Of a stretch of 44,717 nucleotides of DNA, positions 1-44,717 are shown one piece after another. The position numbers and the translations under genes are program-made. Source of the stretch: a phage; NCBI GenBank assembly GCA_036609835.1, contig GCA_036609835.1_4358.1. One strand, written 5' to 3'. The notes under the pieces are model-generated. The model did not search any database. It saw only the letters and a list, made by a program, of their open reading frames with translations, and was not told where the DNA came from. How positions within the stretch are numbered: the first letter of the stretch is position 1; each line of letters begins with the position of its first letter.

Positions 1-127
1 TGAAGGGTAGAAAAGTCGCCAGAATGCTTAATATCATTGTTACGTGCAAGCAAACTCCTTTCGCCACTGCCTATGTTCTCGGCACCGTCCGCGTCAGATA
101 ATGTTTCAACGGTGTTACCGTTGGAAA
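1..127. repeat. Left copy of an exact 127-bp terminal duplication (identical to 44591..44717); most simply the overlap of a circular or circularly permuted assembly
   Basis: Positions 1-127 read identically to 44591-44717; flanking sequence differs (44581-44590 vs 128-137). Confidence 0.9.
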
Positions 128-557
128 AAGACACCAGTGAAGCCCCTAAACCGGCGGTACTTGACGCCAAATCATTACGCAAATTTGGGTCTGTCTGCGG
201 CTTCCAGTTAGCGTTACCGACTGGATTAAAACTCGCGGGAACAACAACCGGCAACGTACCCGCATATGAGTACCACGTCTTGCTTACGGGGTCATACACC
301 ACTTTGTCGCGGTCATTAACTGTTAACGTACCGCCGGTGGAAAAGTCCCACGATACGGGAGAAAAACCGGCATCACGCAACACAGCAGGAAGCGTCTTCT
401 GGGTCTGCCCGGTAACAGGGTTGGTCGCGTAATCAATATCGGCGCCACCAGCAACCCCGCCGGATTTACCGGTGATAACCTCGGCTTCAAAAATTTGGTG
501 TTTCTTGGCGGTTTGTAAATCCGCCAGGCTTAAAACGTCACCGCATCCGCTTGACAT
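1..557 (-). CDS. Tailspike / receptor-binding protein, N-terminal part; gene crosses the window ends and continues in 43162..44717
   Basis: ATG at 557-555 with AAGAGGA 6 nt upstream; minus-strand frame has no stop from 557 to 3 and is in phase with ORF 43162..44643; N-terminus MSSGCGDVLSLADLQTAKKHQIFEAEVITGK is absent from the ORF track. Confidence 0.75.
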   Translation of the reverse strand, partial: MSSGCGDVLSLADLQTAKKHQIFEAEVITGKSGGVAGGADIDYATNPVTGQTQKTLPAVLRDAGFSPVSWDFSTGGTLTVNDRDKVVYDPVSKTWYSYAGTLPVVVPASFNPVGNANWKPQTDPNLRNDLASSTAGLGASLVSFSNGNTVETLSDADGAENIGSGERSLLARNNDIKHSGDFSTL

Positions 558-569
558 ATAGAGTCCTCT

Positions 570-3137
570 TTAATTAAAACCATTGCTGAATCCGTCGGAG
601 AAACCGCTGCCGTATGGCGCGACGCCGTCGTATTTATAGAATCCGTCATCATAGTTGTAGCCCGTAATCTTGACCGTGCGGTCGTCGCCGGGGTCGATTG
701 AAGAAACAACTATCTTCTGAGCATTATGCCTTGCTTCGTTGCCGAATGAAAACTCAGTTTTTAGCGCACTATTCCCCGTGTAGATTGCCTCCTCCGGCGC
801 GGAGAGCATAATCACTTCGCGGTCGTGGCTTCCTTTGATAACAGAAATACTCTGCACAGAGCCGTCGCGCTTCTTAAGAATGATGGAATGGTCATCACCA
901 GGAGTAAACGTAACAGGCTGAGACAGCGTCAGCGTAAGGCCATTGACGGCAACAACATAACCATCCTGCGGCGCGATACGCGAGCCTTTAACCACACTGA
1001 TTACGCCGCCGGGAGTAGCGAGAGCGCCTTCTTCGGTAGCTTCGAACTCTACGACAACTTTACTTAACGTGTTGCGCTGGTAGCGACGCCACGCCAGCCA
1101 GTACGCTTGCTGATAGTTACGTACACCCTTCGATTCGTACTCCTCGGTGTTCGCGCCGAGTTCTTCCGGGATATAAATCGTCTCCTGTACGTTTGTATCC
1201 GGGTCAATGTACGAGAACGACAGGCTATCGTAGGTTGTCGAATCGTTGAACGTGCGCGTCCATTTCTCCGTACCGGTCGTTTTGCTGCGGTGGGTGAAAA
1301 CCATCTCAGGCCCCGCAACAGGACGGTCGAATCGCAGCATAATATCAGCACCTTTACGGTATGCCGTACAAAACACGGCTTCCGCGATGGTCTGAACGAT
1401 GTCTTGCATGGTTGTGTCGTAGTCGTCGAATGTGTAGCAGAACTGCCCGGCTAATTCACTGCCAAAATATGACTCAATCTCTTCCTGCACCGCAAGTAAC
1501 TTGTCCATGTTTGCTGTTGTCAGCTCCAGATTACCCACCGCCGGGTCGCGCGCCAGCCTGATTAGCGACTGCACGGCCTGAGTGTTCGGTGTCATTACCG
1601 TATCGAATACGCCGTTACCTAAGTATTTGTAGCACATCTCGGTTGCAATCATGCGCAGTTCCGGTTCGGACACCTCGGCTGCACGTGGGGTTTGTTTACG
1701 GGCGCAGTGTACGGTAGTACGGTTGCCGTAGTGGGGGGTTGTGTCCAGCGACTGCCCATACAGATTAGTGAAAGTAACCTCGTCGCTAACAGTACCTTCA
1801 AAATCTTTATCGGTGTCCGAAACACGACGCATACGGGCGCGGAATCTGGAAGCAGTTGGTAAACTTCCGTAAAGAGTAATCCCTGTGTAATCCGTGTTCC
1901 GGCCTGTTACGGTTCCTCGTACGGTAAATATGTCACCTACAGGCTGTTTCAATTCATCTACCATCTGGTATTGCAGTTCGACTGTCACTGAAGCGCGGTT
2001 ATAGTCGCCGTTGTATTTGTACATGCCGTTGCTGGCAGCCACATTGGCTACAACACGGTCGACGGTTCCGCGGGTGATGTACGCCCATTCAGAGAGGGAA
2101 GCCGCGTAAGTATCCGCCGGGCCTATAAGATGGTTGCCCTCTTCACCTATAAACCATACAGATGTTCCTAGCTGGTTCCATATTGATTGATTTGTACTGA
2201 CGTCCACAATAAGGGTCGTTTCACTAACAGAAAGAACCGTGTACCTCCCGTCCAGGTTAACCTCATTACCCAAAGACCCTGGGGTTGTATCTGCATATAC
2301 GTTATCGAAGTATGCCAGGTCCCCGACCGCCAAAAACTCATCGAAACCAGCGTCATCGCCTACTACAACGCCGGTTGTTCCCTGCCGCTGGACAGTGTAG
2401 TCCTGCACGTCTATAGCGATATCATTAGGGGCGGGAAGAACAGCGCCATCGACATCGGCGTTTTTAAATGTAACGTACAATTTCTGGTCTATAGGGTCGC
2501 CGATATGCAATTGTGGTGTGCTGGTGTTATTCGGCGAAGTGTAAGGAGAATACACCGTCACCGACGAGCCAGTTATCTCGCTGATTCGGGTATCTGCCTC
2601 AGTTACACCGTCTTCCTCAATATGCAGATACCCTCGACCGGCGTCATAGTACGCATATTCAATAAGCGCCCCCGTGGCGTTAAACACCTTATACGTCTGC
2701 ATCAGGTCATTGGGTATAGTCTGCACTGTCCCGCAGATGTCATAAGAACGTCCATAAGGACGTGGCTTGTTCGAGCGGTCAGTAAGACTGTTGTTAGGCG
2801 ACGTAGCCTGATTGTTGGTAGCGGAATAATTAGCGTTAGCTGCTGTGTTTAGCCCGAACAATTTGGCAATTGGCTTAAGGATGAAACTGAATACACTACC
2901 GATAGCGTCGCCGATACCACCGCCTGCACCCTCGATAATGTGGTACACGGCGTCCTCGTCTTTGAGCGCATTGAAGTCGTCTGTAACATCAGTATCATCG
3001 CCAATCTCGCCGAGGTAGACGCGCGCAGGCACCCCGTCAGGAATATGGTTAACGACAAAATCTATCGGCATCCCGACGTGTTTTGTACGGTCGAAAGCGC
3101 CTTCAGCGTTTCGCGTGTAGTGCAGGATTATCGCCAA
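570..3137 (-). CDS. Large tail tip / central tail fibre protein (lambda J-like position), 855 aa
   Basis: Long ORF downstream of tape measure and minor tail genes; TTG start overlapping upstream stop; function assigned by size and position only. Confidence 0.5.
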   Translation of the reverse strand: MAIILHYTRNAEGAFDRTKHVGMPIDFVVNHIPDGVPARVYLGEIGDDTDVTDDFNALKDEDAVYHIIEGAGGGIGDAIGSVFSFILKPIAKLFGLNTAANANYSATNNQATSPNNSLTDRSNKPRPYGRSYDICGTVQTIPNDLMQTYKVFNATGALIEYAYYDAGRGYLHIEEDGVTEADTRISEITGSSVTVYSPYTSPNNTSTPQLHIGDPIDQKLYVTFKNADVDGAVLPAPNDIAIDVQDYTVQRQGTTGVVVGDDAGFDEFLAVGDLAYFDNVYADTTPGSLGNEVNLDGRYTVLSVSETTLIVDVSTNQSIWNQLGTSVWFIGEEGNHLIGPADTYAASLSEWAYITRGTVDRVVANVAASNGMYKYNGDYNRASVTVELQYQMVDELKQPVGDIFTVRGTVTGRNTDYTGITLYGSLPTASRFRARMRRVSDTDKDFEGTVSDEVTFTNLYGQSLDTTPHYGNRTTVHCARKQTPRAAEVSEPELRMIATEMCYKYLGNGVFDTVMTPNTQAVQSLIRLARDPAVGNLELTTANMDKLLAVQEEIESYFGSELAGQFCYTFDDYDTTMQDIVQTIAEAVFCTAYRKGADIMLRFDRPVAGPEMVFTHRSKTTGTEKWTRTFNDSTTYDSLSFSYIDPDTNVQETIYIPEELGANTEEYESKGVRNYQQAYWLAWRRYQRNTLSKVVVEFEATEEGALATPGGVISVVKGSRIAPQDGYVVAVNGLTLTLSQPVTFTPGDDHSIILKKRDGSVQSISVIKGSHDREVIMLSAPEEAIYTGNSALKTEFSFGNEARHNAQKIVVSSIDPGDDRTVKITGYNYDDGFYKYDGVAPYGSGFSDGFSNGFN

Positions 3138-18470: not shown

Positions 18471-18930
18471 ATTCTGGTTTAGCGACCTTCGCCACTTTAC
18501 TGACGGCCTCTACGCCACCGGCATCGGTAACTTTAACGAAGTATTCACCAACTGCATTAACCGTCAGAGACAAGGCCTCTTCCGGGGCGTTTACCACTTC
18601 CTTACCGTCTTTGTACCAGGTCAGAGCATACGGTTCTTTACCCGCCTTAACTTCGACAGTGATAGTTGCGCTGCCATCTGTAAGTTCAGTGTCTTTCGGT
18701 TGCACAGAGAAATACACGTCACCAGCGTCCGCCAGATACGGAATTTCATAAAGCATACCCGCGGCAGAGAGTGCGATACCTGTCTTGTCTGCAAACGGCA
18801 TATCGTCTACTGGTGTACCGAGTACACTTTCATCTTCAATAAACACCACGTTCTCGCCAGAGCCAGACACGCGGGCGTACTGGACTACGCGACGCGACGG
18901 TACATCAGTTACTTTGAAAAAGCCCATCAT
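18469..18930 (-). CDS. Ig-like domain protein (putative head decoration), 153 aa
   Basis: ATITVEVKAGKEPYALTWYKDGKEV...GEYFVKVTD resembles an Ig-like fold. Confidence 0.45.
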   Translation of the reverse strand: MMGFFKVTDVPSRRVVQYARVSGSGENVVFIEDESVLGTPVDDMPFADKTGIALSAAGMLYEIPYLADAGDVYFSVQPKDTELTDGSATITVEVKAGKEPYALTWYKDGKEVVNAPEEALSLTVNAVGEYFVKVTDAGGVEAVSKVAKVAKPE

Positions 18931-19973
18931 TATTCCCCTTTCAGATAATCAGCAACACGTTTATCGAGTTCCGCCATCTGCTTAAGCGTGAGCGGATTCC
19001 CGAAACCATCTACAGATATTACGCGAAACTCTTCCGGCGATATACCGCTGTTACGGAAAATCTTACCTCGCACCGGGCCGAGGGCCTGGTCCTGAAACCA
19101 CGCCGGTTGTTGTTTAAGGAACTCGTAGTAAGTGGTGTCTGCGCTTACCTGGGTTCCACCTTCTGCGCCCTTAGCTGCGCGTTTTGCGCCCTTATCGAGG
19201 AAGTCGAACTCTGAACTGATTACCGGTGCCGTGGTACTTCTGCACCCAAAATGGGCCGGAGGCATCGGCCCTTTACCGATTTCCCACATCATTCCGTCTC
19301 TGGCCCTGCAAATCGTGCTGGTACGGCTGTCCAGCGTTGATACCCACTCGTACCTATCGATGATGTCGTCGTTCTGGCGGTACGTCTCGTTGCGGGCTTC
19401 GTTGGACACGTGAGACAGCGCAGTACGGATTACTGTAGCTGCATGTTTCTCTGATACGTCAGCCAGCCCGCCTTTACCGACTACTTCTTTAACAATCTGC
19501 CGTGTTGTCTTGCCCTGAACAAAGCCCATCTTAACGCCGGTGACCAGGCGCGCCACCTCCGCTTCACCCCAACCTGACATCAGCTTGGTGAAATCAACGG
19601 GCTTGTCGCTCAATGATAATGGTTGAAACTCGGCAGCGGCCCATACCTGCTCAGCGGTAGGCGTAACAAATTCCGCGTCTACGTTGGCGGTCAGTGTCTT
19701 TACGTTCCACTCAGCCTCATACGCCGCCAGTTCCTTAAGGTCTTCTGTCAGCTTTGTCTGCCAGTCGCCCGTAAGCCCCACCAGTGCTTCTTCAAGGTCG
19801 CGTAACAATTTATTCAGTCGGGCAGTGCTTCGCCCGTCGTCACCGAATAACAGCACCTGCCGTTTTATTTCGTCCCGCATCTCCTGAATGAACGGTGCTA
19901 GGTCTTTCACTTCACCAGATGCGGTGCGTTGCAGCCAAATCTGGTGGCTGATTAGTGATGTCAGTAAGCTCAT
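18930..19973 (-). CDS. Minor head / head morphogenesis protein (Mu F-like), 347 aa
   Basis: Position after portal; C-terminal STICRARDG...PPAHFGCRS Cys/His block typical of this family. Confidence 0.6.
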   Translation of the reverse strand: MSLLTSLISHQIWLQRTASGEVKDLAPFIQEMRDEIKRQVLLFGDDGRSTARLNKLLRDLEEALVGLTGDWQTKLTEDLKELAAYEAEWNVKTLTANVDAEFVTPTAEQVWAAAEFQPLSLSDKPVDFTKLMSGWGEAEVARLVTGVKMGFVQGKTTRQIVKEVVGKGGLADVSEKHAATVIRTALSHVSNEARNETYRQNDDIIDRYEWVSTLDSRTSTICRARDGMMWEIGKGPMPPAHFGCRSTTAPVISSEFDFLDKGAKRAAKGAEGGTQVSADTTYYEFLKQQPAWFQDQALGPVRGKIFRNSGISPEEFRVISVDGFGNPLTLKQMAELDKRVADYLKGE

Positions 19974-20115: not shown

Positions 20116-20769
20116 ATGAAACTGCAAACATTAGAGTTCCCTTATGGAGAAATCACTTTTGACCGTGAAAACTTTATTAACGTAAACGAGCTGGTTGACC
20201 AGATGAACCGTTGGCGTTTAGACAACGGCATGGGGGCCAGAGAGCTTCGCCAGGTCATGGCAACGGATGGCTTCAAGATTTTCAAGGAGGAATGCGAAAA
20301 ACAACTCGGAATCGAGAATGCCATAAGGGCGACGAAAGGCCGAAACGGTCGCACCTTTGCATGTCTCCATCTGGCAGTATATATTGCTGAGCAATACAGC
20401 GCCTATTTCCATTTCCTCGTTATCGACCGCTTTATCACACAACGGCAGGTAGAACTACGAAACATTGGCGCGGTGAGCTTTGTCGAGCTTAACGCTGCCG
20501 TTAGTCGAATGATCGAGCGCACGGAGGGAAGAATTGGCCACAGTGGACACTTCATACAGGTGGCTAAAGCGGTAAAGGAATCCGTAGATATCCGCGACGT
20601 AACGGGTTTCGATACATGGGACTCTCAGGATGCGAAGACCAATCAGTTGCGAAGTGACATCCAGAAAGCTCTGGTGACGCTTCTTGACATGGAGGCCGTT
20701 AATACATGGGGTGAACTGAAAGAGGCGATACCTCGGGTTGTGCGTAAATGTGCGGCTAATATACGTTAA
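20116..20769 (+). CDS. KilA-N-like domain protein (putative), 217 aa (moron)
   Basis: KGRNGRTFACLHLAVYIAEQYSAYFHF resembles the conserved KilA-N core; own promoter/operator and terminator; opposite strand to portal and head genes. Confidence 0.45.
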   Translation: MKLQTLEFPYGEITFDRENFINVNELVDQMNRWRLDNGMGARELRQVMATDGFKIFKEECEKQLGIENAIRATKGRNGRTFACLHLAVYIAEQYSAYFHFLVIDRFITQRQVELRNIGAVSFVELNAAVSRMIERTEGRIGHSGHFIQVAKAVKESVDIRDVTGFDTWDSQDAKTNQLRSDIQKALVTLLDMEAVNTWGELKEAIPRVVRKCAANIR

Positions 20770-22280: not shown

Positions 22281-23531
22281 TTAAAGTGCGAAAGTCACCG
22301 GGATGTTGATTACTGGTTTGACCACCGGCATCTCATAAACTACAGGATAGCCGAGAGCATCAGCCATATGGTCAATGACGCCGTCTTTAGCCGGCTCTCC
22401 GTTATCGTCGTATGCCTGCTGTTCCAGCGTCTTGGCTATCTCAGGACATAAGTGGTCATTAACCCACAGCTTACCTTTTTCCAGCGCGGTGTTCACGGCT
22501 AAAACGCGGTCTTTAACCGGGGGGTTGGCTGATTTAGCGCGAACATCGAAACCCGCCTGCTGGAGTAATGCAATATCAGAGATTGACGCCGAGTTTGTCT
22601 TACGGTTCTTGCCGCTAGCGTCGGGGTAAACGACGATGCGGTGGCCTTGTGACTTCCACTTCTCGGTAATTACGCGCACGGTGTCCGGCGTATCGAACAG
22701 GCCCTTCAGTTCTGCAACCGCGTGCCATCCATCTTTACGCTGCACATACACGGCGCTGGCGTTCTTCGTAACGTTGAAGTCCTGCCCGATGTACAGCGTG
22801 TCGCCCGGTTGAATTGTCTCTTTGCTGCGGTGCTTGCGTCGGTCGTATGCGTAATACACGCTTCCGGATGTCAGGTTGACAAACTCACCGTTCAGATACG
22901 CGTTAATCAGTTGCGCCGGGTAAGTCTCAGTCAGCGAGCTAATGTAATCCGGCGGCAGGAATCTGGCGTTCTCGTGAGTGGACGCCTGCACCATTGAGTA
23001 ACTCGGCGTCGGGTTCTCCTTGAACTTGGCGTAAACGAACTTGAACCCTTCCGGAGTCGTGGTGACGGAGATGTGGTTAATTACCCCCGGGATAACCAGA
23101 CGCATGCGGGCTACGATTTTGTTCCACGCCAGCTCGGCTTTCTCACGGCTCAATACGTCCAGCTCATCCACGACCGCAGCCGCGATTTTGAAGCCGACTA
23201 TCGAGCCGGGGTTATCCATCGAGCGGCAGATAACAGTTCCGAGCACCGTCTTACCGCGAGTGACCACGACTTCTTTGTCGCCAGATTTAACCAGCACATC
23301 GAGGCCGAGGAGGTTAGCCGCTTCCTCGAATGTCGGGTAGAAGATGTCGCGGATAGCCGGGTAGGTGGGGCCGAAGTAGCCCAGGCGGGTACCCGGGTTC
23401 CGGAGCATGAACGTAAGCAGGTCGAGACAGCCGACAAATGTCTTGCCGCTACCGAAGCCTCCGACATAGGCCTTGTATTTGTTATCGCAATTCAGGAACA
23501 GTGCCTGTGGTGCGGATAGCTGAATACTCAT
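22281..23531 (-). CDS. Terminase large subunit, 416 aa
   Basis: Walker A VGGFGSGKTFVG near N-terminus; acidic nuclease-like C-terminal half; follows small terminase. Confidence 0.8.
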   Translation of the reverse strand: MSIQLSAPQALFLNCDNKYKAYVGGFGSGKTFVGCLDLLTFMLRNPGTRLGYFGPTYPAIRDIFYPTFEEAANLLGLDVLVKSGDKEVVVTRGKTVLGTVICRSMDNPGSIVGFKIAAAVVDELDVLSREKAELAWNKIVARMRLVIPGVINHISVTTTPEGFKFVYAKFKENPTPSYSMVQASTHENARFLPPDYISSLTETYPAQLINAYLNGEFVNLTSGSVYYAYDRRKHRSKETIQPGDTLYIGQDFNVTKNASAVYVQRKDGWHAVAELKGLFDTPDTVRVITEKWKSQGHRIVVYPDASGKNRKTNSASISDIALLQQAGFDVRAKSANPPVKDRVLAVNTALEKGKLWVNDHLCPEIAKTLEQQAYDDNGEPAKDGVIDHMADALGYPVVYEMPVVKPVINIPVTFAL

Positions 23532-41100: not shown

Positions 41101-42517
41101 GTTTCAAAGGCGCGAATACCAGAAGCTCATGACTTCGTTTATGCTGCAACACCCGCGCTGTAATATATGGTGCGGAATGGGGGGAGGTAAAACCTCCTCC
41201 ACTATGTGGGTGCTCAACCGCCTGTTCCGCAACGGGCAGCTTACGGAAGAGGACCGCGTGTTAATCCTTGCCCCGTTACGTGTTGCGTCCGGTACGTGGC
41301 CCGCTGAACAAGAGAAATGGCAATTCCCTTGTCTGCGTGTCGTAGATGCAACTGGTTCGGAGAAGCGCCGCATCGCAGCGCTGGAGTCAGATGCTAACGT
41401 GGTGTGCACTAACTACGAAGTTATCGAGTGGCTAATTGACTACTACGGCAAAGACGACTGGCCTTTTACGGTTATCGTTGCCGATGAAAGCACGAAGCTT
41501 AAATCGTTCCGCAGCCGTTCGGGTGGTAGCAAGCGGGCAAAGGCGCTCAGCAAGGTTGCGTTCGGAAAGGTTAAGCGTTTCATCAACCTGACAGGCACAC
41601 CGTCACCAAACGGCCTCAAAGACTTGTGGGGTCAGAACTGGTTTATCGACGCTGGCGAGCGCCTCGGCTCTTCGTACACAGCATTCACCGACCGCTGGTT
41701 TAACTCGGTACAGAAAGGTAAATCGGCTATGGCCCGCGAGTATCATGCACGACCGGGTGCGGATAATGAGATTCATCAGAAGATGAAAGACATCAGCCTG
41801 ACCATAGACCCTGCCGAGTGGTTTGGTTGTGAAGCGCCTGTTATCGTACCGGTGGAAATAGACCTGCCGAAGAAAGCGCGTCAGGCGTACATAGATATGG
41901 AGGAGAAGTTATTCGCAGAACTGGAGAGCGGGGAAGTTGAAGCGGCTAACGCTGCGGCGAAGACCTCAAAGTGCTTGCAGATTGCATCTGGTGCTGTATA
42001 TGTATCCGGGCCAGACGGCGAAGCAACCAAAGAATGGGAGAAAGTGCACGACACGAAACTGGATGCGCTGGCGTCCATTGTCGAGGAGTTACAGGGTGCG
42101 CCGTTACTGGTAGCCTATCAGTTTAAACACGAACTGGAGCGTATCCTTAAGCGATTCCCACAGGCACAGGCGTTCGCCAAAGGCGCTAGGGGGAACAAGC
42201 AGATGGAAGCGTGGAACCGTGGGGAAATACCTATGCTCCTGATACACCCAGCCTCCGCGGGCCACGGGCTGTCGCTACAACACGGCGGGCACCACATGGC
42301 CTTTATGAGTCAGGGGTGGAACCTGGAACATTATCTGCAGGTTATCGAACGCATAGGTCCTGTAAGGCAGATGCAATCTGGGTACAAACGGTCAGTATTC
42401 ATTTATCAAATAATAGCCCGAGATACTCTTGATGAAGTTGTCGCCACGCGTACAGATGAGAAAAGGTCTGTACAGGACGAACTACTTAATTATATGAAAC
42501 GTAGGAGTAAGAAATGA
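41093..42517 (+). CDS. SNF2-family helicase/ATPase, 474 aa
   Basis: Walker A CGMGGGKTSS, DEXH-like VIVADESTKLK, NLTGTPSPNGL; ATGAGTAA overlap with methyltransferase stop. Confidence 0.7.
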   Translation: MSKFQRREYQKLMTSFMLQHPRCNIWCGMGGGKTSSTMWVLNRLFRNGQLTEEDRVLILAPLRVASGTWPAEQEKWQFPCLRVVDATGSEKRRIAALESDANVVCTNYEVIEWLIDYYGKDDWPFTVIVADESTKLKSFRSRSGGSKRAKALSKVAFGKVKRFINLTGTPSPNGLKDLWGQNWFIDAGERLGSSYTAFTDRWFNSVQKGKSAMAREYHARPGADNEIHQKMKDISLTIDPAEWFGCEAPVIVPVEIDLPKKARQAYIDMEEKLFAELESGEVEAANAAAKTSKCLQIASGAVYVSGPDGEATKEWEKVHDTKLDALASIVEELQGAPLLVAYQFKHELERILKRFPQAQAFAKGARGNKQMEAWNRGEIPMLLIHPASAGHGLSLQHGGHHMAFMSQGWNLEHYLQVIERIGPVRQMQSGYKRSVFIYQIIARDTLDEVVATRTDEKRSVQDELLNYMKRRSKK

Positions 42518-42999
42518 GCAAGGTATCATACGACCCTGAAACCGGTATTTTCACATGGGTCGAAACAAAACGTAGGGGTTTTGTTGGAAAGAAAGCCGGA
42601 TGTTTTTGTCCGCGGGAGGGGTACATTCGTATCCGAATAAACGGAAAACTAGAACTAGCACATCGGTTAGCATGGGACATATGCAATCCAGATAACCCAC
42701 TTACCCCACAGGAACAGATAGACCATATCAATCACATTCGAACCGATAACCGAATATGCAACCTGCGGAAAGTTACCAACACTGAAAATAGCCGCAACGC
42801 ATCGATAGGGGTAAACAATACTAGCGGCGCTCTTGGTGTATGGCGGGAAAAGAGAAGAAACAAATGGGTAGCAGAGATAAAAGTCGACAGAAGAAAAATA
42901 CATCTAGGACAGTTTGATGATTTTGGAGAAGCTGTTGCCGCGCGTAAAGCCGCGGAAGCTGCTTACGGATTTCATAAAAACCACGGAGAAACCGCGTGA
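42514..42999 (+). CDS. HNH homing endonuclease with AP2-type DNA-binding domain, 161 aa
   Basis: IDHINHIRTDNRICNLRKVTNTEN (HNH) and GVWREKRRNKWVAEIKVDRRKIHLGQFDDFGEAVAARKAA (AP2-like); locally AT-rich. Confidence 0.7.
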   Translation: MSKVSYDPETGIFTWVETKRRGFVGKKAGCFCPREGYIRIRINGKLELAHRLAWDICNPDNPLTPQEQIDHINHIRTDNRICNLRKVTNTENSRNASIGVNNTSGALGVWREKRRNKWVAEIKVDRRKIHLGQFDDFGEAVAARKAAEAAYGFHKNHGETA

Positions 43000-43135: not shown

Positions 43136-43164
43136 AAAAGGCCCCGTTTGGGGCCTTAGTTTTA
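43136..43164. terminator. Bidirectional rho-independent terminator between convergent HNH and tailspike genes
   Basis: aaaaggccccgtttggggccttagtttt. Confidence 0.7.
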
Positions 43165-44717
43165 AGCCAACGACATTCGGGAGTTAGCGAAAGCTAAAGC
43201 CTGAGCCTGCGTCGTAAACTCAGCGATGAAGAAGTCACTAAATCTGATAACAGCACCTGAACCTCCCCCAGTAGAGACGTACAGACCTACAGTACCGTTA
43301 GCGGAAGCTTTACCCACCCCAAATGTGCTAATCCACTCACCAGACTTAGTATAAACGCTACCCATAGTAATACCTGACGTTATACTCACATCTGCTGTTC
43401 CTGATTGGAGGCGAGAGTTGACGCCCCACACGTACCATCTACCGGATGTAAGTGTCGTTCTTGACGCTACCATTTCATATAAACCGGACCCAGGGAATGA
43501 AAATTCGGTACATGTAGCGGCGTGAAGTCCGTCAGATACAGTCGAACCGTTAACGGTACCGCTACCAGAAAAATTATGGCTACCTGAGTCAAATGTGATA
43601 GCTTTTAACTTATTCCCCGTCGGCGTATTAAACACTCGTCCCCTTGTTAAATTTCCTCGTAGAGACAAGTTTGTAGTGGCTACCGTTGCGGATTGCGACG
43701 CGACAGACTCTACAATAACGTCCTTTCCAGAACTGCCGTTTAAATACACATCGTGGGCTACAATGGTGCTTTGTGCATCCACTACAATATCCTGATTACC
43801 ATCAGCGTTGTCAAAACGGCAACCATAAGTTACTAAGTTGGAGTTGGATAGCTCGATGTTGTTGAGATAAGAATACTCAGCAAAGAATATCGCGGTGTCT
43901 ACCAACTTGAGAACTCGCGGTTTTTGCGCCACGCCATCTACCTGAACAGCCGATGATGTTGCAATAGCTTCCATCCATACATTGGATACCCCGCATGGAG
44001 ATGTAGGGCAGTCACCCGATTTGCTTTTTAAGTATATCCCGCCGCCTCCGGAAGCCTCAATAATGGAGTCTTTAAGCCACCATCCGCCTATCCCACCGTT
44101 ATCGACAGTACCGTTTAGGTAGACGGCATAGGTGGAGATGCCGTCGAAGTGGATATTGTAGAGGGTATCGGCCCCGCAATGCATCTCCGAGCCACTAATC
44201 GCGTAATACCCCCAATCACACGTAGATACCCCAATACTTCTCCATGTATTACCGATGTTCCCGGAAGGCTTCTGAATGGCCTTGTTGATGTTGTGGATGT
44301 ATAAATCACTAAAATTATGACGTCCGGAATATTGGTCTGACGGGTCAAAACTAATACCTACGGCCCCAGTTGTACCTGTACCATCTACGGCAAAACCACC
44401 GCTGTGTCGAAACTGCCAGTGCGGGGTGGATAAATTAACCTGTACAGTATTTGCATAGTTTGCCGATGGTTTTAATATTGCAGCACCACCTACACCTTTT
44501 ATCTGCTTACTACCCAGAGTGATTGCTTCTGTATACTCACCCGGAGAAACAATTAAGTCGTTTTTAGTTAACGACGCATCTACCGCGGCTTGAAGGGTAG
44601 AAAAGTCGCCAGAATGCTTAATATCATTGTTACGTGCAAGCAAACTCCTTTCGCCACTGCCTATGTTCTCGGCACCGTCCGCGTCAGATAATGTTTCAAC
44701 GGTGTTACCGTTGGAAA
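43162..44717 (-). CDS. Tailspike / receptor-binding protein, C-terminal part (5' end continues across the window junction to ATG 557)
   Basis: ORF 43162..44643 is open upstream to the window end and in phase with 1..557; Gly/Ser/Thr/Asn-rich repetitive sequence consistent with a beta-helix domain. Confidence 0.7.
   Translation of the reverse strand, partial: SNGNTVETLSDADGAENIGSGERSLLARNNDIKHSGDFSTLQAAVDASLTKNDLIVSPGEYTEAITLGSKQIKGVGGAAILKPSANYANTVQVNLSTPHWQFRHSGGFAVDGTGTTGAVGISFDPSDQYSGRHNFSDLYIHNINKAIQKPSGNIGNTWRSIGVSTCDWGYYAISGSEMHCGADTLYNIHFDGISTYAVYLNGTVDNGGIGGWWLKDSIIEASGGGGIYLKSKSGDCPTSPCGVSNVWMEAIATSSAVQVDGVAQKPRVLKLVDTAIFFAEYSYLNNIELSNSNLVTYGCRFDNADGNQDIVVDAQSTIVAHDVYLNGSSGKDVIVESVASQSATVATTNLSLRGNLTRGRVFNTPTGNKLKAITFDSGSHNFSGSGTVNGSTVSDGLHAATCTEFSFPGSGLYEMVASRTTLTSGRWYVWGVNSRLQSGTADVSITSGITMGSVYTKSGEWISTFGVGKASANGTVGLYVSTGGGSGAVIRFSDFFIAEFTTQAQALAFANSRMSLA
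44591..44717. repeat. Right copy of the 127-bp terminal duplication
   Basis: Identical to 1..127. Confidence 0.9.

What the first reader, a model, noticed from the sequence alone, without database searches (positions are those of the whole stretch)
1..557. Tailspike gene is split by the linearisation point and its N-terminus is missing from the ORF track
The minus-strand frame is open from ATG 557 through position 3 and stays in phase with ORF 43162..44643 across the 127-bp duplicated ends. The reconstructed product is about 661 aa, with an N-terminal domain (MSSGCGDVLSLADLQTAKKHQIF...) that I associate with tail-attachment domains of Jersey-like and related tailspikes, followed by a Gly/Ser/Thr/Asn-rich probable beta-helix depolymerase. 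The ORF track's 131-aa plus-strand ORF 37..432 is the antisense shadow of this gene.
Basis: seen in the sequence. Interest (0 to 1): 0.5.

Follow-up and report, generated by a model that had tools for sequence, protein, structure and literature searches.

The report
Tailspike gene split by assembly overlap
The window is a complete, circularly assembled genome of a Kagunavirus-type E. coli phage, cut open inside its tailspike gene. Removing the 127-base duplicated end restores an ordinary, already-known 661-residue tailspike, so this is a bookkeeping artefact and not new biology.

Summary

- **Terminal overlap:** window 1..127 is exactly identical to 44591..44717, and the repeat occurs nowhere else.
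- **Restored gene:** dropping one copy gives a 44,590-bp circle. On the minus strand an ORF then runs from ATG 557 through the junction to the stop at 43162..43164 (1,986 nt, 661 aa, Shine-Dalgarno AAAGAGGA upstream).
- **Relatives:** the joined sequence is contiguous and internal in 13 phage records. The product is 98.9% identical over all 661 residues to the annotated tailspike of Escherichia phage vB_EcoS-22664BS2 (Kagunavirus).
- **N-terminal anchor:** residues 1 to about 140 are the Kagunavirus/Jerseyvirus tail-attachment anchor.
- **Receptor-binding part:** residues from about 175 to 661 are predicted to form a right-handed beta-helix plus a beta-sandwich. This part is about 90% identical to the tail fibre of the O25b-specific podovirus LM33_P1.
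- **Plus-strand ORF 37..432:** an antisense shadow with no family match.
- **Overlap length:** 127 bases is typical of an assembler k-mer, and relatives use headful packaging.
- **Side finding:** GenBank MN927225.1 (phage XY1) carries the same 127-bp artefact inside its tailspike and has a truncated annotation.

Novelty is none and interest is low.

The parts
1..557 (-). 5' part of the tailspike gene: codons 1-185 plus two bases of codon 186. ATG is at 557..555. Window 557..183 encodes the N-terminal tail-attachment anchor (about aa 1-125). Window 182..1 encodes the start of the low-confidence linker.
   Evidence: Open frame and translation. Anchor homology to 600 phage records, including 371 Salmonella (Jerseyvirus) records. 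Module boundary from the identity profile.
43162..44590 (-). 3' part of the tailspike gene: the rest of codon 186 through codon 661, plus stop TAA at 43164..43162. About 44565..43633 encodes the predicted beta-helix (aa ~195-505). About 43620..43165 encodes the C-terminal beta-sandwich (aa ~510-661).
   Evidence: In-phase join. Colinear with MZ234010 without indel. AF2 model of a 99%-identical homologue and fold searches. Receptor-binding part about 90% identical to LM33_P1 gp17.
44591..44717 (.). Redundant second copy of window 1..127 (assembly overlap). It should be removed to circularise. It corresponds to gene nt 431-557, codons 144-186.
   Evidence: Exact identity, unique to the two ends. 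The k-mer-length overlap is explained in PMC8116208.
1..127 (.). First copy of the 127-bp terminal overlap.
564..571 (-). Shine-Dalgarno-like AAAGAGGA, 6 nt upstream of the ATG. It overlaps the stop codon (572..570) of the upstream J-like tail protein gene.
   Evidence: Read directly from the sequence. The same 12-nt intergenic spacing is seen in relatives.
570..3137 (-). Context: the J-like central tail fibre / tail tip protein gene immediately upstream. The tailspike sits directly downstream of it, as in other Kagunavirus genomes.
   Evidence: ORF. PHROG 469 'tail protein' at 3.5e-247, plus weak Pfam Phage-tail_3 and FNIII-A_GpJ. The locus rule is stated in PMC11990801.
43138..43157 (.). G+C-rich hairpin (AAGGCCCC-GTTT-GGGGCCTT) followed by U-runs on both strands, 5 nt after the tailspike stop. 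It is a probable bidirectional terminator between the convergent late (minus) and replication (plus) gene blocks.
   Evidence: Folds at -15.5 and -17.4 kcal/mol, z-scores -2.4 and -2.7. The simple consensus scan did not pick it up.
37..432 (+). 131-aa TTG-started ORF antisense to the tailspike gene. It is a shadow ORF, not a gene.
   Evidence: No Pfam or PHROG family. Not annotated in relatives. Its third codon positions coincide with those of the tailspike frame. Against Golestan it has 6 aa changes, compared with 2 in the tailspike frame.

Best explanation
The window is a complete genome of a Kagunavirus (Guernseyvirinae) E. coli siphovirus. A short-read assembler closed it on itself and wrote it out with a 127-base overlap, and the arbitrary cut happened to fall inside the tailspike gene.

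On the real molecule, which is concatemeric during replication and circularly permuted after headful packaging, the gene is one 1,986-nt ORF encoding a 661-residue tailspike.

How the protein most likely works (inferred from homologues and fold):
- It is probably a homotrimer.
- The N-terminal ~125 residues (a helix plus a small beta domain) dock it onto the tail tip, next to the J-like central fibre.
- A flexible linker of about 50-70 residues follows.
- Residues ~195-505 form a right-handed parallel beta-helix that binds, and probably cleaves, the host O-antigen. This lets the virion work its way through the LPS layer to the outer membrane.
- Residues ~510-661 form a C-terminal beta-sandwich that probably supports trimerisation and/or binding.

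The O-antigen target is most likely O25b, the serotype of pandemic ST131 E. coli. The receptor-binding part is about 90% identical to that of the O25b-specific podovirus LM33_P1, and the closest relative was isolated on an O25b-positive host.

Shown here: gene continuity, identity to annotated tailspikes, modular architecture and predicted fold. Inferred: trimer state, enzymatic activity, O25b specificity, and that the overlap is an assembler artefact.
For: - **Overlap and join:** exact 127-bp overlap and in-phase join giving 661 aa.
- **Contiguity in relatives:** the junction-spanning 2,390-nt query is contiguous and more than 18 kb from any record end in 13 phage records, best 99.2%. The alignment to MZ234010 crosses the join with no indel. 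An IMG/VR contig also holds the whole gene contiguously at 96.5%.
- **Identity to annotated tailspikes:** 98.9% and 96.1% full-length identity, same length of 661 aa. PHROG 27367 matches end to end.
- **Modularity:** the anchor is more than 95% conserved in proteins with unrelated C-termini. The receptor-binding part is 60-99% conserved in proteins with T7-fibre (PF03906), P22 head-binding (PF09008) or PF18668 N-termini.
- **O25b link:** LM33_P1-group Kayfunavirus fibres are about 90% identical over 484 aa. 22664BS2 and 22664BS1 were both isolated on the O25b-positive strain DSM22664 (PMC8614997).
- **Packaging:** Kagunavirus large terminases cluster with headful packagers (PMC5582158), and PhageTerm predicts pac packaging for a Guernseyvirinae-like phage (PMC6776780). 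Overlaps equal to the assembler k-mer arise from circular templates (PMC8116208). Relatives' records are cut at different places, and one is deposited as circular.
Against: - No read data are available, so the physical ends were not measured for this genome.
It was also modelled as a monomer.
- No solved structure is detectable by sequence. Pfam gives only a sub-threshold Tail_spike_N hit, so the enzyme class (hydrolase, lyase or esterase) is undetermined.
- The host and its serotype are unknown for this window.
- The LM33_P1/O25b LPS dependence is taken from my memory of Dufour et al. 2016, which could not be read here.
Confidence: 0.93

Rival explanations
1. The 127-bp repeat is a genuine direct terminal repeat marking fixed physical ends (T7-like). 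The two gene halves would then lie at opposite ends of the packaged DNA and be joined only transiently, or never.
For: An exact direct repeat at both ends is formally what a short DTR looks like. Some phages of similar size have DTRs of 150-300 bp (PMC5582158).
Against: - The repeat lies inside an essential structural gene that is contiguous and internal in 13 relatives.
- Relatives' records end elsewhere. 22664BS2 has a 51-bp overlap at a different locus, and XY1 has another exactly 127-bp overlap at a different position in the same gene. That pattern fits assembler k-mers, not conserved termini.
- Kagunavirus terminases group with headful packagers.
- 127 is the largest k-mer SPAdes uses (my knowledge), and k-mer-length overlaps are a documented artefact.
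Confidence: 0.02
2. The two halves are separate genes: an adaptor/anchor protein and a separate receptor-binding protein, as in K1-5, SP6 or CLB_P1. The frame continuity across the join would then be coincidental.
For: Split anchor/RBD systems exist in podoviruses (PMC10408124). The break falls in the linker between the two modules.
Against: There is no stop codon between the modules once joined. Single 661-aa ORFs of identical length are annotated in relatives. More than 10 database clusters hold full-length 661-aa proteins at 90-99% identity. No start codon with a ribosome-binding site is evident for a separate downstream gene.
Confidence: 0.01
3. The plus-strand ORF 37..432 is a real overlapping gene, not a shadow.
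For: It stays open in 22664BS2 and Golestan despite 40 substitutions in the latter.
Against: It has a TTG start with no ribosome-binding site. It has no Pfam or PHROG family and is never annotated. Its third codon positions coincide with those of the tailspike, so its openness and apparent conservation follow from constraint on the tailspike. It accumulates three times as many amino-acid changes as the tailspike frame (6 versus 2).
Confidence: 0.01
4. The gene reconstruction is right, but the beta-helix is not an O25b endoglycosidase. It could be a lyase or an esterase, or act mainly as a binding module. It might also bind mammalian glycans, as reported for the 64%-identical ES17 tail fibre.
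For: - ES17's fibre (64% identical over the receptor-binding part) was reported to bind heparan sulfate, with no depolymerase activity detected (PMC7885116).
- There is no Pfam catalytic family.
Against: - Conserved acidic residues lie in the helix across homologues down to 35-50% identity: D327, D360, E393, E424, D446, D457. This is typical of catalytic tailspikes.
- Kagunavirus phages generally depend on surface glycans processed by enzymatic tailspikes (PMC11990801).
- The phages carrying this module were isolated on O25b hosts.
Confidence: 0.25

Closest known systems
Tailspike QZI78537.1 of Escherichia phage vB_EcoS-22664BS2 (MZ234010, Kagunavirus), and Golestan gp30 (YP_009620110.1)
   Same: Same length (661 aa). 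98.9% and 96.1% identity with no gaps. Same position directly downstream of the J-like tail protein, with the same 12-nt spacer, and convergent with the same 45-aa ORF.
   Different: Seven and 26 amino-acid substitutions respectively. In those records the gene is internal and annotated; here it is cut by the linearisation point.
Tail fibre gp17 of Kayfunavirus LM33_P1 (SBT28132.1), the O25b/ST131-specific T7-like podovirus
   Same: The receptor-binding part is about 90.7% identical over 484 aa (82.7% over residues 95-661). It is presumably the same receptor. The similarity was already noted for Golestan ORF30 (PMC7203180).
   Different: The N-terminus is a T7-type fibre anchor (PF03906), 726 aa in total, on a podovirus tail. 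It is unrelated to the Kagunavirus anchor.
Jerseyvirus tailspikes (for example Salmonella phage SE2) and K1-specific Kagunavirus endosialidases (K1ind1, XY1)
   Same: The N-terminal anchor is homologous: about 70-73% identity over residues 1-113 for Jerseyvirus and about 63% for K1 types. XY1 starts with the identical MSSGCGDVLSLADLQTAKKHQIF.
   Different: The C-terminal receptor-binding domains are unrelated (Salmonella O-antigen-specific, or endosialidase beta-propeller).
Solved tailspikes: CBA120 TSP2/TSP4 (6w4q, 5w6h), Sf6, HK620 and P22 tailspikes, and Klebsiella K2-2 TSP
   Same: Same overall architecture in the predicted model: small N-terminal domain(s), a right-handed parallel beta-helix and a C-terminal beta domain. 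Residues 62-142 are also sequence-related to Kuttervirus tailspike N-termini.
   Different: Only 8-16% sequence identity in the helix. Catalytic residues cannot be transferred. No sequence-detectable solved relative exists.
K-mer-length terminal overlaps of circular templates in de Bruijn assemblies (CheckV 'DTR contigs')
   Same: An exact repeat at both ends with an odd, k-mer-like length, and an arbitrary break position.
   Different: Nothing differs. Read-level confirmation is simply unavailable here.

Membership tests
Kagunavirus / Guernseyvirinae tailspike | N-terminal anchor domain homologous to the genus- or subfamily-wide anchor | tested here: met
   More than 95% identity over residues 1 to about 120 to many Kagunavirus-type proteins with unrelated C-termini. 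600 phage records matched, with Jerseyvirus at about 72%.
Kagunavirus / Guernseyvirinae tailspike | Encoded directly downstream of the J-like central tail fibre gene | tested here: met
   The J-like ORF 570..3137 ends 12 nt before ATG 557. The rule is stated in PMC11990801. Relatives have the same layout.
Kagunavirus / Guernseyvirinae tailspike | Right-handed parallel beta-helix receptor-binding domain | tested here: met
Kagunavirus / Guernseyvirinae tailspike | Homotrimeric assembly on the virion | not testable with these tools
   Only a monomer prediction was possible.
Kagunavirus / Guernseyvirinae tailspike | Enzymatic processing of the surface glycan | not testable with these tools
   Only conserved acidic residues can be listed: D327, D360, E393, E424, D446, D457.
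LM33_P1-type (O25b-associated) receptor-binding domain subtype | At least 30% identity over at least 60% of the RBD (the subtype criterion of PMC10408124) | tested here: met
   90.7% identity over 484 of 485 residues. The criterion is quoted.
LM33_P1-type (O25b-associated) receptor-binding domain subtype | Host carries O25b O-antigen and infection depends on it | not testable with these tools
   The host of this genome is unknown. The closest relative, and a podovirus with the same RBD, were isolated on the O25b-positive strain DSM22664.
Pfam PF18668 Tail_spike_N (TSP1/gp66 N-terminal domain) | Score at or above the Pfam gathering threshold (25 bits) | tested here: not met
   21.7 bits, E 2.2e-4, residues 77-112. 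Homology of residues 62-142 to Kuttervirus tailspikes is nevertheless clear by tblastn (62% identity, E 9e-25).
Assembler-generated terminal overlap of a circular or permuted template | Exact direct repeat confined to the two contig ends | tested here: met
Assembler-generated terminal overlap of a circular or permuted template | Removing one copy restores colinearity with relatives, with no indel | tested here: met
   Window 44590 to 1 maps to MZ234010 27474 to 27473.
Assembler-generated terminal overlap of a circular or permuted template | Repeat length equals the assembler's k-mer, and reads span the junction | not testable with these tools
   127 matches the SPAdes maximum k (my knowledge). 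The phenomenon is described in PMC8116208. No reads or assembly log are available.
Genuine short direct terminal repeats (T7-like fixed ends) | Ends at a position conserved among relatives and not interrupting a gene | tested here: not met
   The repeat lies in codons 144-186 of the tailspike. Relatives' record ends and overlaps are elsewhere.

The most novel reading that the evidence does not exclude
Two independently assembled Kagunavirus genomes, this window and GenBank XY1, both break with a 127-bp overlap inside the anchor/linker region of the tailspike gene.

This could be more than coincidence. The assembly graph may branch there because the sequenced lysates contained sub-populations or co-isolated phages that share the anchor or the receptor-binding module. 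For example, a Kayfunavirus with the same O25b module was isolated on the same host as 22664BS2. In that case the break point would mark an active recombination hotspot for receptor-module swapping.

A second unexcluded reading concerns the O25b-type module, which is 64% identical to the ES17 fibre. It might also bind mammalian heparan-sulfate glycans.
Probability: 0.1. Interest if true: 0.35.

Novelty: already known. Interest (0 to 1): 0.08.

Why it matters
The practical value is in annotation. If the contig is not circularised, the phage's only receptor-binding protein is reported as a truncated 493-aa ORF with a false TTG start, its tail-attachment domain is lost, and a spurious antisense ORF takes its place. 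That would mislead host-range prediction and tailspike engineering.

The same error exists in a public "complete genome" record and its RefSeq copy (MN927225.1 / NC_073325.1). There, an 890-aa "endosialidase" CDS should be 975 aa.

Biologically, the protein is one more example of the well-documented rule that tailspike anchors follow phage taxonomy while receptor-binding modules follow host serotype. Here the module is an O25b/ST131-associated one, shared between sipho-, T7-like and other podoviruses.

Tried and rejected
- **Predicting the exact joined protein:** I used P0001 instead, which is 652/661 identical.
- **Sequence search of the PDB:** only noise, E about 0.8 to TetR proteins.
- **Pfam on the full protein:** only a sub-threshold Tail_spike_N hit.
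- **Finding the source contig by exact protein look-up:** nothing on record for the J-like protein, the C-terminal tailspike piece or the helicase.
- **Reading Dufour et al. 2016 on LM33_P1:** not held.
- **Codon-position substitution test against the antisense ORF:** weakly informative only, because third positions of the two frames coincide.
- **Consensus terminator scan:** missed the hairpin after the stop codon. Folding shows it.
- **Large terminase typing:** Pfam and PDB give only generic Terminase_6N/6C and no solved relative. The packaging type therefore rests on the literature for relatives.
- **Literature search 'Kagunavirus + headful':** it found a paper in which the Kagunavirus-like phage's termini were undetermined.

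Full report
**Observation**

The first 127 bases of the window are exactly repeated as its last 127 bases (1..127 = 44591..44717). 127 is the longest exact terminal overlap, and neither the repeat nor any 30-mer of it occurs elsewhere.

On the minus strand the frame that starts at ATG 557 stays open down to position 3 (185 codons plus two bases). After removal of 44591..44717 it continues in phase through 44590 down to the TAA at 43164..43162. The joined ORF is 1,986 nt and encodes 661 aa.

The TTG at 44643, which begins the listed 493-aa ORF, is simply codon 169 of this gene. A Shine-Dalgarno-like AAAGAGGA lies 6 nt upstream of the ATG and overlaps the stop codon of the preceding J-like tail protein gene, 570..3137.

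The mechanical ORF list shows neither the N-terminal part nor the full gene. It does show a 131-aa plus-strand ORF, 37..432, on the opposite strand. Chance openness of 661 codons at this composition is about 3e-14.

**Is the join real?**

A 2,390-nt query built across the join is matched end to end as one piece by 13 phage records, best 99.2%. In every case the match lies far inside the record.

Against the closest one, Escherichia phage vB_EcoS-22664BS2 (MZ234010, Kagunavirus, Guernseyvirinae), the alignment passes from window 44590 to window 1 as subject 27474 to 27473. There is not a single base of indel at the join.

That record annotates a 661-aa 'tailspike' (QZI78537.1) at this place, and RefSeq Golestan annotates a 661-aa 'tail fiber protein'. 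The joined product is 98.9% and 96.1% identical to them over its full length with no gaps. An IMG/VR contig of 43.9 kb also holds the whole gene contiguously at 96.5%. Protein clusters from public assemblies include ten 661-aa proteins at 90-99% identity.

**Why the ends are an artefact**

- The repeat interrupts an essential structural gene.
- Relatives' records are opened at other positions, mostly at the terminase genes. One, Bas73, is deposited as circular.
- 22664BS2 has its own 51-bp exact overlap at an unrelated locus.
[quoted passage not shown] 127 is the largest k used by SPAdes (my knowledge).
- Kagunavirus large terminases cluster with headful packagers (PMC5582158). PhageTerm predicts pac packaging for a Guernseyvirinae-like coliphage (PMC6776780).
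- The window's own large terminase (22281..23531) is a generic Terminase_6N/6C protein, which is not discriminating.

I could not test reads, so this step is strongly supported but inferred.

**What the protein is**

PHROG 27367 ('tail fiber protein') matches all 661 residues, and several 'tail spike' PHROGs match the first 114-160 residues. Pfam gives only a sub-threshold Tail_spike_N hit at residues 77-112, and no solved structure is detectable by sequence.

A block-wise identity profile shows a sharp modular boundary at about residues 120-160.
- Residues 1 to about 120 are more than 95% conserved in proteins whose C-termini are unrelated. These C-termini carry SGNH/GDSL, pectate-lyase-3, GDPD or peptidase-S74 Pfam domains.
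- Residues from about 160 onward are 60-99% conserved in proteins whose N-termini are a T7-fibre anchor (PF03906), a P22 head-binding domain (PF09008) or PF18668.

In the phage collection the anchor finds 600 records. Of these, 371 are Salmonella phages of the Jersey type (for example SE2, about 72% over residues 1-113), and others are K1-specific Kagunavirus endosialidases.

The receptor-binding part finds only 42 records:
- Kagunavirus, 95-99.8% identity.
- The LM33_P1 group of Kayfunavirus podoviruses, about 90%.
- ES17, myPSH1131 and myPSH2311, 64%.
- Bp4 and PD38, about 40%.

The similarity of Golestan ORF30 to the LM33_P1 fibre is already published (PMC7203180).

**Fold**

P0001 is 652/661 identical. 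Mean pLDDT is 84.9. The model has:
- a helix at residues 11-29;
- a small beta domain up to about residue 120;
- a lower-confidence linker (residues 121-175, pLDDT 58-68);
- a long run of short strands from residue 197 to about 500;
- a beta-sandwich at residues 512-644 with a terminal helix.

So 'beta-helix tailspike' is supported at fold level, while the chemistry is open. Acidic residues conserved across all 29 aligned homologues of the receptor-binding part are D327, D360, E393, E424, D446 and D457. These are candidates only.

**Likely mechanism**

Published work on Kagunavirus and other glycan-dependent phages gives the following picture (PMC11990801; PMC10408124). The tailspike is encoded directly after the J-like central fibre. 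Its anchor, conserved at genus level, attaches it to the tail tip. Its C-terminal module, exchanged horizontally, recognises and processes a specific O-antigen or capsule.

For this module the likely substrate is O25b. LM33_P1 is the O25b:H4-ST131 phage. In addition, both 22664BS2 (sipho, same tailspike) and 22664BS1 (podo, same module) were isolated on the O25b-positive strain DSM22664 (PMC8614997). This specificity is inferred, not shown for this genome.

A caveat: the 64%-identical ES17 fibre was reported to bind heparan sulfate, with no depolymerase activity detected (PMC7885116).

**The antisense ORF**

ORF 37..432 (+) starts with TTG and has no ribosome-binding site. It has no Pfam or PHROG match and is annotated in none of three relatives.

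It remains open in relatives, but its third codon positions coincide with those of the tailspike frame. In the comparison with Golestan, 35 of the 40 substitutions fall on that shared position. Its openness is therefore a by-product of constraint on the tailspike. It also accumulates 6 amino-acid changes against 2 in the tailspike frame.

**Comparison with the known, and novelty**

The gene, its product, its modular relationship to LM33_P1 and the assembler artefact are all already described. The window is a mosaic new isolate or contig of a known genus: 82% is covered by megablast to its best relative, at about 96% identity across the largest (20-kb) aligned block and 74-99% elsewhere. Nothing about the tailspike is new. 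Interest is low.

**Side finding**

The GenBank record of Kagunavirus XY1 (MN927225.1, also NC_073325.1) has the same defect.
- It has an exact 127-bp terminal overlap inside its tailspike gene.
- No CDS is annotated on record 1..383.
- An 890-aa 'endosialidase' CDS starts 11 nt from the record end.
- Removing the overlap yields a 975-aa ORF that begins with the same MSSGCGDVLSLADLQTAKKHQIF anchor.

In this window the break covers codons 144-186, exactly the linker between the two modules. In XY1 it covers about gene nt 245-371, in the anchor. Whether two breaks in this region reflect assembly-graph branching at a shared or recombining segment is untested.

Noticed in passing
L008/L009 (GenBank MN927225.1 = RefSeq NC_073325.1, Escherichia phage vB_EcoS_XY1), record 1..383 and 42883..45566: This public 'complete, circular' record has the same artefact: an exact 127-bp terminal overlap inside its tailspike gene. 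The N-terminal anchor (record 1..371) is unannotated, and the CDS is truncated to 890 aa. Removing the overlap gives a 975-aa ORF starting MSSGCGDVLSLADLQTAKKHQIF.
   Followed up: yes
window 1..127 / 44591..44717 (gene codons 144-186): The assembly break falls exactly in the linker between the conserved anchor and the horizontally exchanged receptor-binding module. XY1's break is also in the anchor region. This may reflect graph branching at a segment shared between co-occurring phages, or it may be coincidence.
   Followed up: partly
L005 (MZ234010.1, vB_EcoS-22664BS2), record ends: The closest relative's 'linear complete genome' record has a 51-bp exact terminal overlap at a different locus, roughly window 27570. 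This is again a k-mer-like length.
   Followed up: partly
window 43162..44590 plus proteins P0011-P0041: The same receptor-binding module is fused to at least four unrelated N-terminal anchors: Kagunavirus, T7-fibre PF03906, P22 head-binding PF09008 (including contigs of 80-450 kb that look chromosomal or prophage-borne), and PF18668. It also occurs in the 1,021-aa ES17 fibre.
   Followed up: partly
window 43162..44590 compared with the backbone: The receptor-binding part is 99.8% identical in protein to phage phiEc3. The first 23 kb of the genome (the structural region, window 1-22909) is only about 90.5% identical in DNA to phiEc3. This suggests recent exchange of the module between Kagunavirus lineages.
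   Followed up: partly
window 20116..20769 (+): A 217-aa ORF lies on the strand opposite to the surrounding structural genes, between the portal and head-morphogenesis genes. It gives a full-length match to PHROG 6095 (labelled 'amidase') and a weak Pfam KilA-N hit. The segment is not matched by megablast in 22664BS2 or Bas73. It looks like a variable moron slot.
   Followed up: partly
window 42514..42999 (+): An HNH endonuclease (Pfam HNH_3 at 5.7e-11, PHROG 99) sits between the helicase and the 45-aa ORF. It is absent from Bas73. The same slot in 22664BS2 holds a sequence not matched by megablast, and the same slot in Golestan holds a CDS labelled 'DNA primase', whose sequence I did not compare with the window. 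It is a probable homing endonuclease.
   Followed up: partly
window 43138..43157: A strong G+C hairpin with U-runs on both strands lies between the convergent tailspike and replication-module genes. It is a probable bidirectional terminator, missed by the consensus scan.
   Followed up: partly
window 570..3137 (-): The start of the J-like tail protein is annotated inconsistently among relatives: 2,496 nt in 22664BS2 and 2,484 nt in XY1, against 2,568 nt in Golestan and Bas73. The window ORF is 855 aa from a TTG start.
   Followed up: no
window 18930..19973 (-) compared with relatives fEg-Eco06 and KMB36: Some relatives annotate a 'minor head protein with inserted intein' (PMC11162368). The window's head-morphogenesis ORF is 347 aa, apparently without such an insertion.
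   Followed up: no
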